Origin: Solirubrobacteraceae bacterium
Lineage (GTDB): Bacteria > Actinomycetota > Thermoleophilia > Solirubrobacterales > Solirubrobacteraceae
Direction of reading: 5' to 3'
Assembly (NCBI GenBank): GCA_035504435.1
Contig: DATJRV010000083.1
Location: 22,242 to 86,241, forward strand
Length of the DNA: 64,000 nucleotides
Shown here: positions 51,178 through 58,123 of the stretch, one piece after another
Position numbering within the stretch: the stretch's first letter is position 1
How the letters are laid out: every line of letters starts with the position of its first letter
Notes under the pieces: model-generated
What the model was told of the DNA's origin: nothing
Seen by the model: the letters and a program-made list of their open reading frames with translations, nothing else
Database searches by the model: none
Position numbers and translations under genes: made by a program

Positions 51178-51251
51178 GCCGGAGTAGCTCAGCTGGTTAG
51201 AGCAGCGGAATCATAATCCGCGTGTCGGGGGTTCGAGTCCCTCCTCCGGCA
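51178..51251 (+). tRNA. tRNA-Met(CAT), elongator type
   Basis: Acceptor GCCGGAG/CTCCGGC, TAGCTCAG D arm, anticodon arm GCGGA-ATCATAA-TCCGC, GTTCGAGTC T loop. G1-C72 pair argues against initiator. CCA not encoded. Confidence 0.95.
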
Positions 51252-55068: not shown

Positions 55069-56352
55069 GTGAACGGCACGGACATCGAACCGACGACAAA
55101 CCCAGCCGAGCACTCCCCCGCCCCCGCCCCGGCGCCGGCCGCCGACCCGACCGTGTTGCGCGTAGCGCGCCAGCCGATCCTCGACGCCAGCGCGCGCGTG
55201 ATCGGCTACGAGCTGCTGTTCTGGGCGCCCCAGGCGGACAGCGCGGTGCTGCTCGACGACCGCGCGACGACGGCGGCGGTGATCCTCGACGGGCTGCTCG
55301 ACGTCGGCCTGTCCGACCTGGTGGGCGAGAGCGTCGCCTATCTGAACGTCTCCCGCGACTTCCTGCTCAGCGTCCGCCCGCTGCCGCTGCCGGCCGACCG
55401 GGTCGTGCTGGAGGTGCGCGAGGACCAGCTGATCGACGAGCAACTGCTGGACGTCCTGCAGGAGCTGGTCGAACAGAGCTTCACGATCGCGCTCGACGAG
55501 TTTCGCCTGACCGCCGACACCGAGCAGCTGCTGAAGTACGCGCGGATCGTGAAGATCGACGTGCTCGAGTACACCGGCCAGGCGCTGGAGGACCTCGTCG
55601 CCGAGCTGCAAGCGCACCCGTCCGCGCCGACCCTGCTCGCCGAGAAGGTCGAGACGCGCGAGCTGTTCGAGCATTGTCGCGCGCTCGGCTTCCACGCCTT
55701 CCAGGGCTACTTCTTCGCTGCCCCGTCGCGTGTGCAGCAGCAGCGCCTGCCGTCCCGCGGCCTCACCGCGCTGCGTTCCATGACCGACCTCAGCGCCACC
55801 GAGGACATGGACGAGCTGCACCAGATCATCACGCGCGACGCCGGCCTGAGCATGCGGCTGCTGCGCTACGCCAACTCCGCCTACCTGTCCATACCGCGGC
55901 GTGTCGGCTCCGTCCACGAGGCGCTCGTGTGGCTCGGCGCGCGCGAGGTGCGGCGGTTCGCGCTGATGGTCGCGCTCGCAGGCGCTCCCGACATCCCCGA
56001 CGTGCTGCTCGTGACGGCGCTCGTGCGCGCCAACATGTGCCAGCTGCTGTCCGGCGCCGGCGACAGCCCCACCGGGGACTCGTACTTCACGGTCGGCCTG
56101 TTCTCCGTCGCCGACGCGCTCGTCAACGCGCCCATGGAGCACGTGATCGAGCAGCTCCCCTTCCGCGAGGACATCGCCGCCGCGCTGCTCGACCGCAGCG
56201 GCGAGCTCGGCGAGCTGCTCGGCGAAGTGATCGCCTACGAGCGCGGCGAGTTCGACGCCGCCGGGACGCTGATCGAGCGCAACCCCAACGTCGAGCAGAC
56301 CTACCGCGAGGCGACCGCCTGGGCCGACCTCAGCATCCGTGGGCTGATCTGA
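55069..56352 (+). CDS. EAL + HDOD domain protein (YuxH/PdeH-like)
   Basis: ARQPI..GYELLF, ALDEF, KID, AEKVET, FQGYFF, then IITRDAGLSMRLLRYANS..FTVGLFS. Confidence 0.92.
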   Translation: MNGTDIEPTTNPAEHSPAPAPAPAADPTVLRVARQPILDASARVIGYELLFWAPQADSAVLLDDRATTAAVILDGLLDVGLSDLVGESVAYLNVSRDFLLSVRPLPLPADRVVLEVREDQLIDEQLLDVLQELVEQSFTIALDEFRLTADTEQLLKYARIVKIDVLEYTGQALEDLVAELQAHPSAPTLLAEKVETRELFEHCRALGFHAFQGYFFAAPSRVQQQRLPSRGLTALRSMTDLSATEDMDELHQIITRDAGLSMRLLRYANSAYLSIPRRVGSVHEALVWLGAREVRRFALMVALAGAPDIPDVLLVTALVRANMCQLLSGAGDSPTGDSYFTVGLFSVADALVNAPMEHVIEQLPFREDIAAALLDRSGELGELLGEVIAYERGEFDAAGTLIERNPNVEQTYREATAWADLSIRGLI

Positions 56353-56375
56353 GCGCCGCAGCCGGCGCCGGCCTC

Positions 56376-56603
56376 CTACGGGGCTTCGACTTCCGCAGCC
56401 AGCTCGACCAGCGTCACTTCCAGCGCCGCCGCGATGCGGCGCACGGTCGTCCACGCGGGGGTCGCCTGGCCGAGCTCGATCCGCGCGAGCGAGCCGGTCG
56501 TGATGCCCGCGCGGTACGCGAGCGCTTCCTGTGTTGACCCCCGCTCAACGCGCAGCCGGCGCAGCACCGCAGCTAGCGCGAGATCAGGGCCCCCGGATGA
56601 CAT
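56376..56603 (-). CDS. XRE-family HTH regulator
   Basis: LRRLRVERGSTQEALAYRAGITTGSLARIELGQATP. Confidence 0.88.
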   Translation of the reverse strand: MSSGGPDLALAAVLRRLRVERGSTQEALAYRAGITTGSLARIELGQATPAWTTVRRIAAALEVTLVELAAEVEAP

Positions 56604-56690: not shown

Positions 56691-56909
56691 ATGCAGATGT
56701 CCGGTAGCCCGTTGCACGTGGTCCAGCTGCGCTTCACCCACGACGAGTGGAGCCACATCAGCGCCATCGCCCGCCTGCGCAATGTCACCGTCGAGGAGCT
56801 GCTGCGCGAGGAGCTGCGCCTGAGCAGCCGGCAGGCCGAGCCACCGGAGCGCCAGCGCTCGCACCTGCAGATCGTGGCGCCCCGCCGCGAGCCCGACCGG
56901 GGAGCCTGA
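56691..56909 (+). CDS. Small RHH-like protein
   Basis: VQLRFTHDEWSHISAIARLRNVTVEELLREEL strand-helix-helix pattern. Confidence 0.6.
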   Translation: MQMSGSPLHVVQLRFTHDEWSHISAIARLRNVTVEELLREELRLSSRQAEPPERQRSHLQIVAPRREPDRGA

Positions 56910-57053
56910 AGCAAGCGAACCGCCCGCGTTCATCGCGTCGGCGCGGCGTGCCGGGTGTGCGGCGCGCTCGCCGGAGGAGCTTTTAGCCGCAAGGTGCGCG
57001 ATCGGCAAGCGCGGGCTCTTGCAATCGACGAGCGAGCCGCCTAAGTTGACTAC

Positions 57054-57182
57054 AGACGCGGTTCCGAGCCGTCAAGAGCGAGGCCACTGAGGTGTGAGGC
57101 CGTGCCACCAGAACCGGAGGGCCCTCGGGCCGGAAGGGGACAGGTTCCTCGAACGGCCCGGAGCCGCGTCGCTTTGTTGTTC
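57054..57182 (+). ncRNA. Candidate stand-alone structured small RNA
   Basis: TTGCAA-N17-TAAGTT promoter (57019-57047), 11-bp closing stem 57055-65/57160-70, inner stems, U-rich tail. Lies between convergent genes. Confidence 0.6.
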
Positions 57183-57258
57183 ACGCGGCCCCGCGCCGCT
57201 CTGCCGCTGCGAGAACGTCTCCTCTCGCCCATGCTCTCGCACGCAGCGCGGCGCGCCG

Positions 57259-57328
57259 GGTCAGAAGCAGGGCTTGCGGCGCGCCAGGTCAGAAGCAGGG
57301 CTCGCGGCGCTCCGGGTCAGAAGCAGGG
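57259..57328. repeat. 28-bp tandem repeat (3 copies) containing the GH114 gene 3' end and stop
   Basis: GGTCAGAAGCAGGG at 57259, 57287 and 57315. Confidence 0.9.
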
Positions 57329-58123
57329 TTCGTAGCGGCGGCCGTTGAGCGCCAGGTTGAAGCGCGCGCCCATGATTCCCGCGGCTTCATCGGCGGCGCA
57401 GAAGCGGCGCTTCTTCAGCTTGTACTCAGCGTTCAGCACCGGCTTGCCAACCGCCAGATACGGGTCGAAGTCGGAGCATTCGTCGAACTGGTTGCATTCC
57501 TCGGACAGCGCGCCGTCGAAGTACGGCTCCTGTTCGACGGTCTGTTCGCCGTCGTTCTTCTGCAACACCGCCATCCCCAGCGAGTGCACCTCGCTGGCCA
57601 CCCACAGGTTGTAGGTCAGCTGCTCCTGCGCGGTCAGCGGGAAGCCCGTCTTGTTGGCGTAGCCTTCCATGTTGTCCGGCTCCACCGCGTCGAAGCCCTT
57701 TTCCTTGCACATTTCAAAGCGCTTGGTCATGATCGGCTCGAGGACGCTCAGCTGGCGAATGTCGAGCCAGCGCTCGCCCGGCCAGCCGTTGGGCTTCCCC
57801 AGCACCGACTTGGGGAACTCGTCGTAGTCCGGGCGAAACTTCTCGGCGGTGCCGACATCGATGTAACACACCACGTGCTTGCCCTGCGCGTGCAGCAGCG
57901 CGACCTCTTCGGCGCTGTTTTCAAAGCCGTCGATGTCGTAGATTTCGACCGGCTCGTTGTTGTTGACCGTGCCCGTGAGCTGCCAGTACCAGGTGGGGTG
58001 CGCTGGCAGCGTCCACCAGCTCGCCGCGCGCGCCTGGCCGACGGCGAGCAGCAGCGCAGCGCACGCCAGCAGCGCCGCCGCCACCACCGCCCTCCTTGAC
58101 ACGCCACGCGCGAGCGTACCCAT
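57317..58123 (-). CDS. Secreted endo-alpha-1,4-polygalactosaminidase (GH114-like)
   Basis: Signal peptide, WYWQL, YDIDGF, CYIDVGTAE, DAVEPDNMEG, KN, EECNQF. Confidence 0.9.
   Translation of the reverse strand: MGTLARGVSRRAVVAAALLACAALLLAVGQARAASWWTLPAHPTWYWQLTGTVNNNEPVEIYDIDGFENSAEEVALLHAQGKHVVCYIDVGTAEKFRPDYDEFPKSVLGKPNGWPGERWLDIRQLSVLEPIMTKRFEMCKEKGFDAVEPDNMEGYANKTGFPLTAQEQLTYNLWVASEVHSLGMAVLQKNDGEQTVEQEPYFDGALSEECNQFDECSDFDPYLAVGKPVLNAEYKLKKRRFCAADEAAGIMGARFNLALNGRRYEPCF

What the first reader, a model, noticed from the sequence alone, without database searches (positions are those of the whole stretch)
57019..57182. Stand-alone ~125-nt structured small RNA candidate with its own promoter and terminator
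Seen: a near-consensus housekeeping promoter TTGCAA-N17-TAAGTT places a TSS near 57054. The 5' end GACGCGGUUCC pairs with GGAGCCGCGUC (57160-70), followed by GCUUUGUUGUU. Inner stems are GCCGU/ACGGC, CGAGG/CCUCG, GAACC/GGUUC and GGCCC/GGGCC. Both flanking genes point into this region, so it is not a leader of either. I could not match it to SRP, 6S, tmRNA, RNase P or a known riboswitch by eye. Short words (GCGAGGCCA, GCCGGAAG) faintly recall actinobacterial Ms1.
Basis: partly seen in the sequence, partly recalled or inferred. Interest (0 to 1): 0.7.

Follow-up and report, generated by a model that had tools for sequence, protein, structure and literature searches.

The report
New conserved small RNA gene family
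The flagged stretch is very probably a real, independently transcribed ~120-nt structured small RNA gene; it belongs to an undescribed family found in hundreds of soil Solirubrobacterales genomes, where one copy almost always sits just upstream of the ribosome-rescue tmRNA gene, and its function is unknown.

Summary

Comparative evidence makes this a gene. More than 300 homologous copies were recovered, all but two chance hits from Solirubrobacterales genomes. Each has a conserved promoter, mostly with an upstream T-tract/TGCGGG box, and conservation stops about 12 nt after the closing stem.

Covariation in two independent sets supports a three-way junction: a long closing rod (P1/P1b) and a variable arm (P3/P3b/P4). 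A 35-nt core is invariant. It contains a hairpin (P2) whose loop always carries GAGGUG, a perfect Shine-Dalgarno hexamer, plus an invariant CCUC in the junction.

No Rfam 15 family matches, including 6S, SRP, 5S, tmRNA and RNase P. No paper was found.

In a sample anchored on smpB, 68 of 70 ssrA loci carry the sRNA 37-1182 nt upstream of tmRNA (most under 150 nt). tmRNA has its own -10 element. The window copy is a stand-alone paralogue beside a GH114 gene.

Function is inferred only: a trans-acting RNA working through the invariant core. Pairing with the 16S anti-SD is my leading but weak guess. Transcript evidence is weak because it rests on metatranscriptome contigs.

The parts
56981..57000 (+). 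Upstream box: T-tract (TTTT 56981-84) followed by AGCCGCAAGGTGCGCG. Family consensus is TTTTTT at -73..-68 and ccG.AAggTGCGGGa at about -67..-53. Probably a regulator or UP-like site.
   Evidence: Position logo of 124 copies. Every regex match to box plus promoter in 2.68 Mb of held sequence lies upstream of an sRNA copy, none elsewhere. The box is absent in one divergent clade.
57019..57024 (+). -35 hexamer TTGCAA
   Evidence: Sequence. TTGCAA in 60 of 121 copies and TTGnnn in all of them; spacer is 17 nt in 114 of 121.
57042..57047 (+). -10 hexamer TAAGTT (family TAnnTT)
   Evidence: The distance to the conserved A/G start is 6 nt in 115 of 122 copies.
57054..57181 (+). Predicted sRNA transcript, about 118-nt body plus U-rich tail. 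+1 is predicted at A57054 and the 3' end near 57175-57181.
   Evidence: Covariance model R1 scores 130.2 bits (E 4.6e-31) on the + strand and 27.1 bits on the - strand. Conservation boundaries. Ends are inferred, not mapped.
57055..57072 (+). 5' strand of the closing rod. P1 is GACGCGG (57055-61), the internal loop is UU (57062-63), and P1b is CCGAGCCGU (57064-72).
   Evidence: Pairs with 57153-57170. P1b has 6-8 of its 9 pairs with compensatory changes in two independent alignments.
57073..57077 (+). Junction strand J1/2 (CAAGA; family AAAGA), with the 3' part invariant (AGAG with G57078)
   Evidence: Invariant columns in alignment A1.
57078..57105 (+). Invariant P2 hairpin: GCGAGGCCAC / GAGGCCGUGC with loop UGAGGUGU (57088-95). 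The GAGGUG hexamer is at 57089-57094.
   Evidence: No variation in Watson-Crick positions across more than 300 copies. Changes occur only at loop flanks, at the two predicted mismatches, and as G-C to G-U. The helix itself is therefore untested by covariation. GAGGUG was unchanged in all but one of the 68 smpB-anchored copies; that one could not be read at the motif.
57107..57145 (+). Variable arm. P3 is 57107-11 with 57141-45. P3b is CC 57114-15 with GG 57136-37. A purine-rich symmetric internal loop follows (GAG / GGA). P4 is GGCC 57120-23 with GGCC 57128-31, loop CUCG.
   Evidence: Compensatory changes in P3, P3b and P4. A56-U104 changes to G-C in L271, L273 and L025. The arm tolerates a tandem duplication of the P4 module.
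57146..57152 (+). Junction strand J3/1 (UCCUCGA), with invariant CCUC at 57147-57150
   Evidence: CCUC is unchanged in nearly every copy examined; the bases after it vary.
57153..57170 (+). 3' strand of the closing rod (ACGGCCCGG, AG, CCGCGUC)
   Evidence: Pairs with 57055-57072.
57171..57181 (+). U-rich tail GCUUUGUUGUU. Together with the G+C-rich P1 stem it reads as an intrinsic-terminator-like 3' end.
   Evidence: Two of the tail's T positions are more than 90% conserved. Similarity between copies ends here. Some copies have U7-8. Termination itself was not tested.

Best explanation
Shown by comparison:
- Window 56981-57181 is a self-contained gene unit: upstream box, sigma-A-type promoter, an RNA of about 118 nt, and a stem plus U-tail terminator.
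- It encodes a structured small RNA of an undescribed family.
- As far as sampled, the family is confined to Solirubrobacterales (class Thermoleophilia, Actinomycetota).
- Nearly every genome has one copy just upstream of, and on the same strand as, the tmRNA gene ssrA. Some genomes have one or two further stand-alone copies. The window copy is one of these and is conserved next to a GH114 gene.

Model:
- The RNA folds as a three-way junction.
- The long closing rod and the variable arm are supported by covariation.
- The 35-nt core (AGAGCGAGGCC-ACYGAGGUGUGA-GGCCGCGCCACC) and the 3' GGUUCCUC are essentially frozen in sequence.

Inferred:
- The RNA acts in trans through this frozen core.
- The core most likely presents the GAGGUG hexamer in the P2 loop to a partner carrying CACCUC. 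The universal candidate is the anti-Shine-Dalgarno tail of 16S rRNA in 30S subunits. A sequence-specific protein of the translation or ribosome-rescue machinery is about equally possible.
- Expression is set by a factor that recognises the T-tract/TGCGGG box.

My probabilities:
- real independent sRNA gene: about 0.9
- acts in trans through the invariant core: about 0.7
- partner is the 16S anti-SD: about 0.2
For: - Family size and range: the 31-mer is present in 13 species genomes.
- Promoter and box are conserved at fixed distances and are exclusive to this gene in 2.68 Mb.
- Structure: 92-93% of cells are paired, against 26-48% when partners are slid. 15 and 19 pairs carry double changes, and 0 of 500 shuffles reach the observed values, in two independent alignments. 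Further compensatory changes appear in divergent copies.
- Strand: G-U pairs and the model score, 130 versus 27 bits.
- Not any known family: Rfam 15 at gathering thresholds and at E<=10.
- ssrA linkage: 67 of 124 copies lie 33-189 nt upstream of tmRNA. In the smpB-anchored sample, which does not depend on the RNA's own sequence, 68 of 70 tmRNA loci have it.
- Separate gene from tmRNA: tmRNA has its own conserved -10 (TACACT or TAGAAT) about 21 nt before its mature 5' end. No metatranscriptome contig bridges the two.
- GAGGUG stays fixed while its loop flanks vary.
- RNA-derived contigs containing the core occur in at least 8 metatranscriptomes.
Against: - No transcript ends are mapped. Some metatranscriptome contigs containing the RNA run upstream past the predicted +1, which means DNA carry-over or read-through.
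- The P2 helix has no covariation because it never varies.
- Single-sequence thermodynamics do not favour the model. P2 probability averages 0.32 and P3 0.15, and the constrained model lies a median 3.8 kcal/mol above the minimum free energy.
- Nothing tested here links the RNA to ribosomes. The 16S sequence of this lineage is not in the held data, so the anti-SD argument rests on general knowledge that the 16S 3' tail contains CACCUCC.
- Neighbourhood with ssrA may be historical rather than functional. tmRNA has no conserved CACCUC site.
- The taxonomic outer boundary is unknown because every scan saturated on in-group genomes.
Confidence: 0.6

Rival explanations
1. Protein-sequestering or protein-scaffolding sRNA. 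The frozen core and the purine-rich internal loops are a sequence-specific binding site for an RNA-binding protein, and the RNA titrates or delivers that protein. Candidates would be a translation, rescue or RNA-decay factor such as SmpB, RNase R or S1.
For: Absolute sequence invariance of 35 nt across hundreds of species, while adjacent helices covary, is typical of protein or tertiary contacts. Conserved purine-purine internal loops occur in P1 (AA/GA) and beside P4 (GAA/GGA). The family shows regulated, duplicated genes, a pattern also seen in Csr/Rsm-type sponge RNAs. It lies in the smpB-ssrA neighbourhood.
Against: No partner protein gene is consistently adjacent to the stand-alone copies. 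There is only one copy of the motif per RNA, unlike the repeated sites of known sponge RNAs. No binding data exist.
Confidence: 0.25
2. Classical base-pairing sRNA acting on mRNAs. Either the single-stranded CCUC junction (anti-SD-like) occludes ribosome-binding sites, or the GAGGUG loop pairs with C-rich mRNA or sRNA sites.
For: There are invariant short motifs predicted to be unpaired: CCUC in J3/1 and GAGGUG in L2. The RNA has a Rho-independent-like 3' end and its own regulated promoter. By my recollection, pyrimidine-rich seeds that target SD regions are known in Actinobacteria, for example 6C RNA.
Against: Seeds of 4-6 nt are short for specific targeting. In single-sequence ensembles CCUC is mostly paired, with unpaired probability about 0.3. 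No target search was possible with only fragments of each genome. The invariant block is 35 nt, much longer than a seed.
Confidence: 0.2
3. Cis-acting part of ssrA expression: a 5' leader, processing module or insulator of the tmRNA precursor. Stand-alone copies would then be decaying duplicates.
For: 97% of sampled ssrA loci have it directly upstream on the same strand, with gaps as short as about 35 nt. The interrupted U-tract could allow read-through.
Against: Stand-alone copies, including the window copy and its 13 or more orthologues, keep the promoter, box, core and terminator intact with no tmRNA downstream. tmRNA has its own conserved -10. Metatranscriptome contigs for tmRNA stop at its 5' end, with zero depth across the spacer.
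Confidence: 0.07
4. RNA-polymerase-binding RNA of the 6S/Ms1 type.
For: It would be a stable structured RNA with paired ends and a strong promoter. I recall that some Actinobacteria lack a recognisable 6S RNA.
Against: No Rfam match to any family even at E<=10. The RNA is about 118 nt and forms a three-way junction, not a rod of 180-300 nt with a central open-promoter-like bubble.
Confidence: 0.04
5. Not an RNA gene: a bidirectional terminator or repeated palindromic DNA element sitting between convergent genes.
For: It lies between convergent ORFs. Both strands fold about equally well as single sequences, with z-scores of -2.05 and -3.38.
Against: A conserved oriented promoter lies upstream. 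G-U pairs are valid only on the + strand. The frozen core is non-palindromic. Only 1-3 copies were seen per genome (lower bounds), in varied contexts and mostly not between convergent genes.
Confidence: 0.02

Closest known systems
Orphan structured sRNA classes found by comparative genomics (the kind of candidate that is later curated into Rfam)
   Same: Defined by conservation, covariation, its own promoter and terminator, and lineage restriction, with no assigned function.
   Different: The sequence core is unusually frozen at 35 nt. Synteny with ssrA is near-universal, extra paralogues exist, and a dedicated upstream box is present.
5S rRNA
   Same: About 120 nt, a three-way junction, paired 5' and 3' ends, and a purine-rich loop-E-like internal loop in one arm.
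   Different: No match to the Rfam 5S model even at E<=10. It has its own promoter and terminator and was found beside ssrA or stand-alone; no 16S gene lies in any held locus. I saw none of the conserved 5S loop sequences.
Csr/Rsm-type sponge sRNAs (CsrB, RsmY/Z)
   Same: Duplicated sRNA genes driven by promoters with a dedicated upstream activating sequence. They are thought to work by presenting conserved purine-rich loop motifs.
   Different: There is one GAGGUG loop rather than many GGA hairpins. I do not expect CsrA in this lineage, though that was not checked. There is no sequence or model similarity.
6S RNA and Ms1 (RNAP-binding RNAs)
   Same: Stable RNAs with paired termini.
   Different: Size, topology and sequence all differ, and there is no Rfam hit.
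Protein factors that block or protect the 16S anti-SD (RMF-type hibernation factors; RNase R attack on the 16S 3' end, PMC10901742 title and abstract)
   Same: Only at the level of my hypothesis: an exposed perfect SD hexamer could occupy the same anti-SD tail.
   Different: Those are proteins, and nothing here shows ribosome binding. To my knowledge an RNA doing this in trans would have no described precedent.

Membership tests
Ms1 (actinobacterial RNAP-core-binding sRNA) | Match to the curated covariance model or sequence family | tested here: not met
   cmscan against all 4227 Rfam 15 families found no credible hit at gathering thresholds or at E<=10 on the window copy and an ssrA-linked copy. 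I did not verify that an Ms1 model is in the library.
Ms1 (actinobacterial RNAP-core-binding sRNA) | Length of about 300 nt | tested here: not met
   The conserved unit is about 118 nt plus tail. The Ms1 length is from my memory.
Ms1 (actinobacterial RNAP-core-binding sRNA) | Binds RNA polymerase core | not testable with these tools
   Needs RNAP co-immunoprecipitation.
6S RNA | Rfam 6S model; a rod of about 180 nt with a large central bubble that mimics an open promoter | tested here: not met
   No Rfam hit. The covariation-supported fold is a three-way junction of 118 nt.
Bacterial SRP RNA (4.5S) | Domain IV: GNRA tetraloop closed by a conserved stem, with symmetric and asymmetric loops; match to the SRP models | tested here: not met
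   No Rfam hit. The GGAA word at 57132-35 is not conserved in relatives, which have CGAA, GGAC, CGAU and others, and it is not a hairpin loop in the model.
Bacterial SRP RNA (4.5S) | Single essential copy per genome | tested here: not met
   Up to 3 distinct copies per genome were seen, some in tandem.
tmRNA | tRNA-like domain plus tag reading frame; Rfam or ARAGORN detection | tested here: not met
   The element is not called. A complete standard tmRNA (160-175 bits, tag ADSHEYALAA) lies downstream of most copies as a separate gene.
5S rRNA | Rfam 5S model | tested here: not met
   No hit at E<=10.
5S rRNA | Location in an rRNA operon | tested here: not met
   Copies sit beside ssrA or beside unrelated genes. 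No 16S 3' end was found in any held locus.
Riboswitch or cis-regulatory 5' leader | Lies upstream of, and is co-transcribed with, a regulated gene on the same strand | tested here: not met
   The window copy faces a convergent GH114 gene. A terminator-like end follows the structure. Downstream genes differ between stand-alone copies. tmRNA has its own -10.
Independently transcribed bacterial sRNA gene (generic kind) | Own promoter, conserved in position and sequence | tested here: met
   The -35, 17-nt spacer, -10 and 6-nt discriminator are conserved in 124 copies.
Independently transcribed bacterial sRNA gene (generic kind) | Conserved secondary structure with compensatory changes | tested here: met
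   two independent sets, with 0 of 500 shuffles reaching the observed values. This holds for P1b, P3, P3b and P4, not for P2.
Independently transcribed bacterial sRNA gene (generic kind) | Discrete transcript with defined 5' and 3' ends | tested here: inconclusive
   The core is present in contigs of at least 8 metatranscriptomes at depth about 10-23. Contigs give no ends, and some extend upstream of +1.
Independently transcribed bacterial sRNA gene (generic kind) | Not protein-coding | tested here: met
   The only ORFs through it are window-specific. The GUG at 57102 is GCG in nearly all relatives, and 1-2-nt indels are frequent in the arm.

The most novel reading that the evidence does not exclude
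The RNA is an RNA-based occupant of the 16S rRNA anti-Shine-Dalgarno tail. Its frozen hairpin loop (GAGGUG) would pair with CACCUC of idle 30S subunits. That pairing would park them or shield the 16S 3' end, for example from RNase R. Its own CCUC would act as an internal competitor or switch. This would be a trans-acting RNA counterpart of protein hibernation factors, genetically lodged in the rnr-smpB-ssrA ribosome-rescue locus.
Probability: 0.12. Interest if true: 0.85.

Novelty: new member of a known kind. Interest (0 to 1): 0.55.

Why it matters
Solirubrobacterales turn up repeatedly in the soil, peat and wetland metagenomes that hold this sequence, and to my knowledge no regulatory RNA has been described for them. 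This would be a lineage-wide, extremely conserved sRNA with a clean gene structure, a testable fold, a dedicated promoter box and a striking genomic partner, ssrA. It is a ready candidate for a new Rfam family and a marker for annotating these MAGs. The exposed perfect SD hexamer beside the ribosome-rescue genes gives a concrete hypothesis that an experiment could disprove. If it proved right, it would add an RNA to the list of factors that act on the 30S anti-SD tail.

Tried and rejected
- Rfam at gathering thresholds and at E<=10 on two copies gave only chance-level hits to miRNA, snoRNA and VA models.
The fifth CGAGG/CCUCG pair is C-A in most copies. The ensemble probability of GAGG1:CCUC is 0.02.
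- A pseudoknot between the L2 loop (UGAGG) and J3/1 (CCUCA): the loop U/C polymorphism shows no matching change in J3/1, so this stays untestable and is sterically doubtful.
- sRNA-tmRNA pairing: RNAduplex was no different from shuffles and uninformative for G+C-rich RNAs. CACCUC is present in only 5 of 158 tmRNAs.
- A start-stop mini-ORF (GAGG-N8-GUG-UGA): UGA becomes CAA in one clade and the spacing varies, so I rejected it.
- Hammerhead-like core (CUGANGA): A9 is missing and U4 varies to C. I judged a k-turn unlikely because the internal loop is symmetric 3x3. Both judgements are by eye.
- The box as a general stable-RNA promoter feature: it is absent upstream of the window tRNA and absent elsewhere.
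- Plasmid, phage and viral-contig searches found no match.
- Attempts to reach outgroups with smpB-anchored loci and an SmpB homologue search returned only in-group sequences at 82-98% identity. The taxonomic boundary is therefore unresolved, and the protein search was poor value.
- Literature searches found nothing relevant to this RNA.

Full report
**Observation.** The sequence is as described. TTGCAA is at 57019-24, followed by a 17-nt spacer, TAAGTT at 57042-47, and 6 nt to A57054. GACGCGGUUCC...GGAGCCGCGUC closes the element, and GCUUUGUUGUU follows at 57171-81. A GH114 glycoside hydrolase gene (PF03537, E 4e-76) converges from the right and ends at 57317. A 72-aa ORF with no Pfam hit ends at 56909 on the left.

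Taken alone, the sequence is not compelling. The fold z-score is -2.05 on the + strand and -3.38 on the - strand. The strict consensus scanner reports no promoter or terminator here. Rfam 15 finds only a tRNA in the whole window, and nothing credible at E<=10 in the region.

**It is conserved as a gene.**
- The first 31 nt occur exactly once in each of 13 Solirubrobacteraceae species genomes.
- Aligning these shows similarity starting in the promoter, running through about 118 nt, and stopping about 12 nt after the closing stem. Flanks are unrelated between groups of loci.
A forced variant (U to C in the loop) hits another 120 or more. All are Solirubrobacterales MAGs except two chance hits.
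- nhmmer finds 321 hits in 313 held loci.
- The window contains only this one copy.
- Plasmid, phage and viral-contig collections have none.

**Promoter.** Across 124 copies the following are conserved:
- a T-tract at -73..-68;
- ccG.AAggTGCGGGa at about -67..-53;
- a -35 hexamer TTGCAa;
- a 17-nt spacer in 114 of 121 copies;
- a -10 hexamer TAnnTT;
- a 6-nt discriminator before a conserved cA.

Every match to the box-plus-promoter pattern in 2.68 Mb of held sequence is upstream of a copy of this RNA. The window tRNA lacks the box. One divergent clade (L248, L260) also lacks it.

**Structure.** RNAalifold and a hand-refined model give a three-way junction. Its parts are:
- P1: 7 bp, closing the 5' and 3' ends.
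- P1b: 9 bp, separated from P1 by a purine-rich internal loop.
- P2: a hairpin, GCGAGGCCAC / GAGGCCGCGC with an 8-12-nt loop.
- P3-P3b-P4: a variable arm ending in GGCC-YYCG-GGCC, with a symmetric GAA/GGA-type internal loop.
- Junction strands AAAGA and UCCUCAA.

On 123 distinct copies, 92% of cells are paired, 15 pairs have compensatory double changes, and 0 of 500 shuffles reach the observed values. Slid controls give 26-40% pairing. An independent set, gathered with the loop-variant pattern and aligned to covariance model R1, gives 93% paired, 19 pairs with double changes and 0 of 500.

Divergent copies add further support. A56-U104 becomes G-C. CCGC/GCGG becomes CUAG/CUGG in P1b. Some copies carry a tandem duplication of the P4 module.

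Many G-U pairs, the oriented promoter and the model score (130 bits forward, 27 bits reverse) fix the strand.

P2 is a different matter. Its Watson-Crick positions never vary, so it is neither supported nor contradicted by covariation. The changes that do occur fall on loop flanks, on the two predicted mismatches, and as G-C to G-U, which is at least consistent with the helix. Single-sequence thermodynamics do not particularly favour the model: P2 probability averages 0.32, and the constrained model lies a median 3.8 kcal/mol above the minimum free energy.

**Genomic partner.**
- Rfam and ARAGORN find a complete tmRNA gene (160-175 bits, tag ADSHEYALAA) 33-189 nt downstream, on the same strand, of 67 of the first 124 copies. 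Ten more copies have one within 2.6 kb.
- To remove the bias of selecting loci by the RNA's own sequence, I anchored on smpB. The query is the 161-aa ORF of L110, and its close homologues carry PF01668. Of the 70 recovered loci that contain tmRNA, 68 have the sRNA upstream on the same strand. The two exceptions are L283 and L293; in L283 a short-unit tandem-repeat array stands there instead.
- A typical arrangement is L110: smpB, a divergent gene with an HEMGH motif, box and promoter, sRNA, ssrA. I read the divergent gene as an M50-type protease and an upstream ORF in L069 as RNase R; neither was tested.
- tmRNA has its own conserved -10 (TACACT, TAGAAT or TACAAT) about 21 nt before its mature 5' end. 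In four metatranscriptomes, tmRNA contigs (depth 100-1500) stop at its 5' end, with zero depth across the spacer. The sRNA core has depth about 10-23. The sRNA is therefore a separate gene, not the tmRNA leader.
- Genomes show 1-3 distinct copies, which are lower bounds, and some copies are in tandem.
- The window copy belongs to a stand-alone orthologue group. Of the 124 copies from the first two scans, 20 have a homologue of the window's convergent GH114 gene downstream.

**Expression.** The core is present in contigs of at least 8 metatranscriptomes. These are assembled contigs without ends, and some extend upstream of the predicted +1. Transcription is supported only weakly, and the ends are inferred.

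**Mechanism.** What stands out is a 35-nt block frozen across hundreds of species, flanked by helices that evolve freely. Within it, the hexamer GAGGUG persists while its loop flanks change: ACU, ACC, AAC, GAC, AUU, A or G before it, and UGA, UAA or CAA after it. GAGGUG is the exact complement of CACCUC, the core of the 16S anti-Shine-Dalgarno tail. That identity is general knowledge; no 16S gene lies in the held data. The junction also holds an invariant CCUC.

My leading reading is a trans-acting RNA that presents an SD mimic to 30S subunits or to a sequence-specific protein of the translation or rescue machinery. A factor binding the upstream box would regulate it. I give the anti-SD version about 0.2. 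A protein-binding RNA and a conventional mRNA-pairing sRNA are roughly as likely.

I consider four alternatives unlikely, for the reasons given in the rival explanations and rejected ideas: a cis role in ssrA expression, an RNAP-binding RNA of the 6S/Ms1 type, a start-stop mini-ORF, and a plain terminator or palindrome.

**Comparison and novelty.** No Rfam 15 family matches, and six literature searches found nothing on such an RNA. In architecture it is closest to 5S rRNA: about 120 nt, a three-way junction, and a loop-E-like internal loop. In gene organisation it recalls Rsm/Csr-type sRNAs, with duplicated genes and a dedicated upstream sequence. It is a member of neither.

I class it as a new family within the known kind "structured bacterial sRNA". 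The taxonomic boundary beyond Solirubrobacterales is unresolved, because every collection scan saturated on in-group genomes.

Noticed in passing
window 57247-57332: A 28-nt unit is repeated 3.1 times (89% matches). It is the last ~9 codons plus stop (..EPCF*) of the convergent GH114 gene, duplicated twice more downstream of the real stop at 57317-19. The cause is unknown; replication slippage or a relic of 3'-end remodelling are possibilities.
   Followed up: partly
window 51178-51251 (+): A tRNA gene with a CAU anticodon (67 bits) is the only Rfam hit in the window. Its upstream region has no sRNA-type box or promoter.
   Followed up: partly
L283:6437-6766: An ssrA locus where the sRNA is missing. 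In its place a tandem array of a short unit (ccggttgcggtcttggcgtcttg...) sits directly upstream of the tmRNA promoter.
   Followed up: no
L312 and L320 (sRNA copies upstream of tmRNA): The P4 hairpin module, with its GAA/GGA-type flanks, is duplicated in tandem inside the variable arm. That arm is therefore expandable.
   Followed up: no
L248, L260 (sRNA copies upstream of tmRNA): A divergent clade. The loop is shortened to A/G-GAGGUG-CAA and the A-G mismatch becomes A-A. There is no T-tract/TGCGGG box upstream, so regulation there may differ.
   Followed up: no
L022, L129, L133, L138, L178, L002: Two sRNA copies lie within 0.3-2 kb of each other on one contig, in tandem or in opposite orientation. 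These look like recent local duplications of the whole promoter-to-terminator unit.
   Followed up: partly
ssrA loci, e.g. L110:4773-4808: tmRNA genes of this order share a conserved -10 (gcTACACT or TAGAAT) and a leader of about 14 nt ending ..ACAUCCCC before the mature GGGGACGACAGGCU 5' end. In short-spacer loci the tmRNA promoter must overlap the sRNA terminator tail.
   Followed up: partly
window 55069-56603: Upstream neighbours are an EAL-HDOD protein (+ strand) and a 75-aa XRE-type HTH protein (- strand). The 72-aa ORF at 56691-56909 has no Pfam match and may not be a gene.
   Followed up: partly
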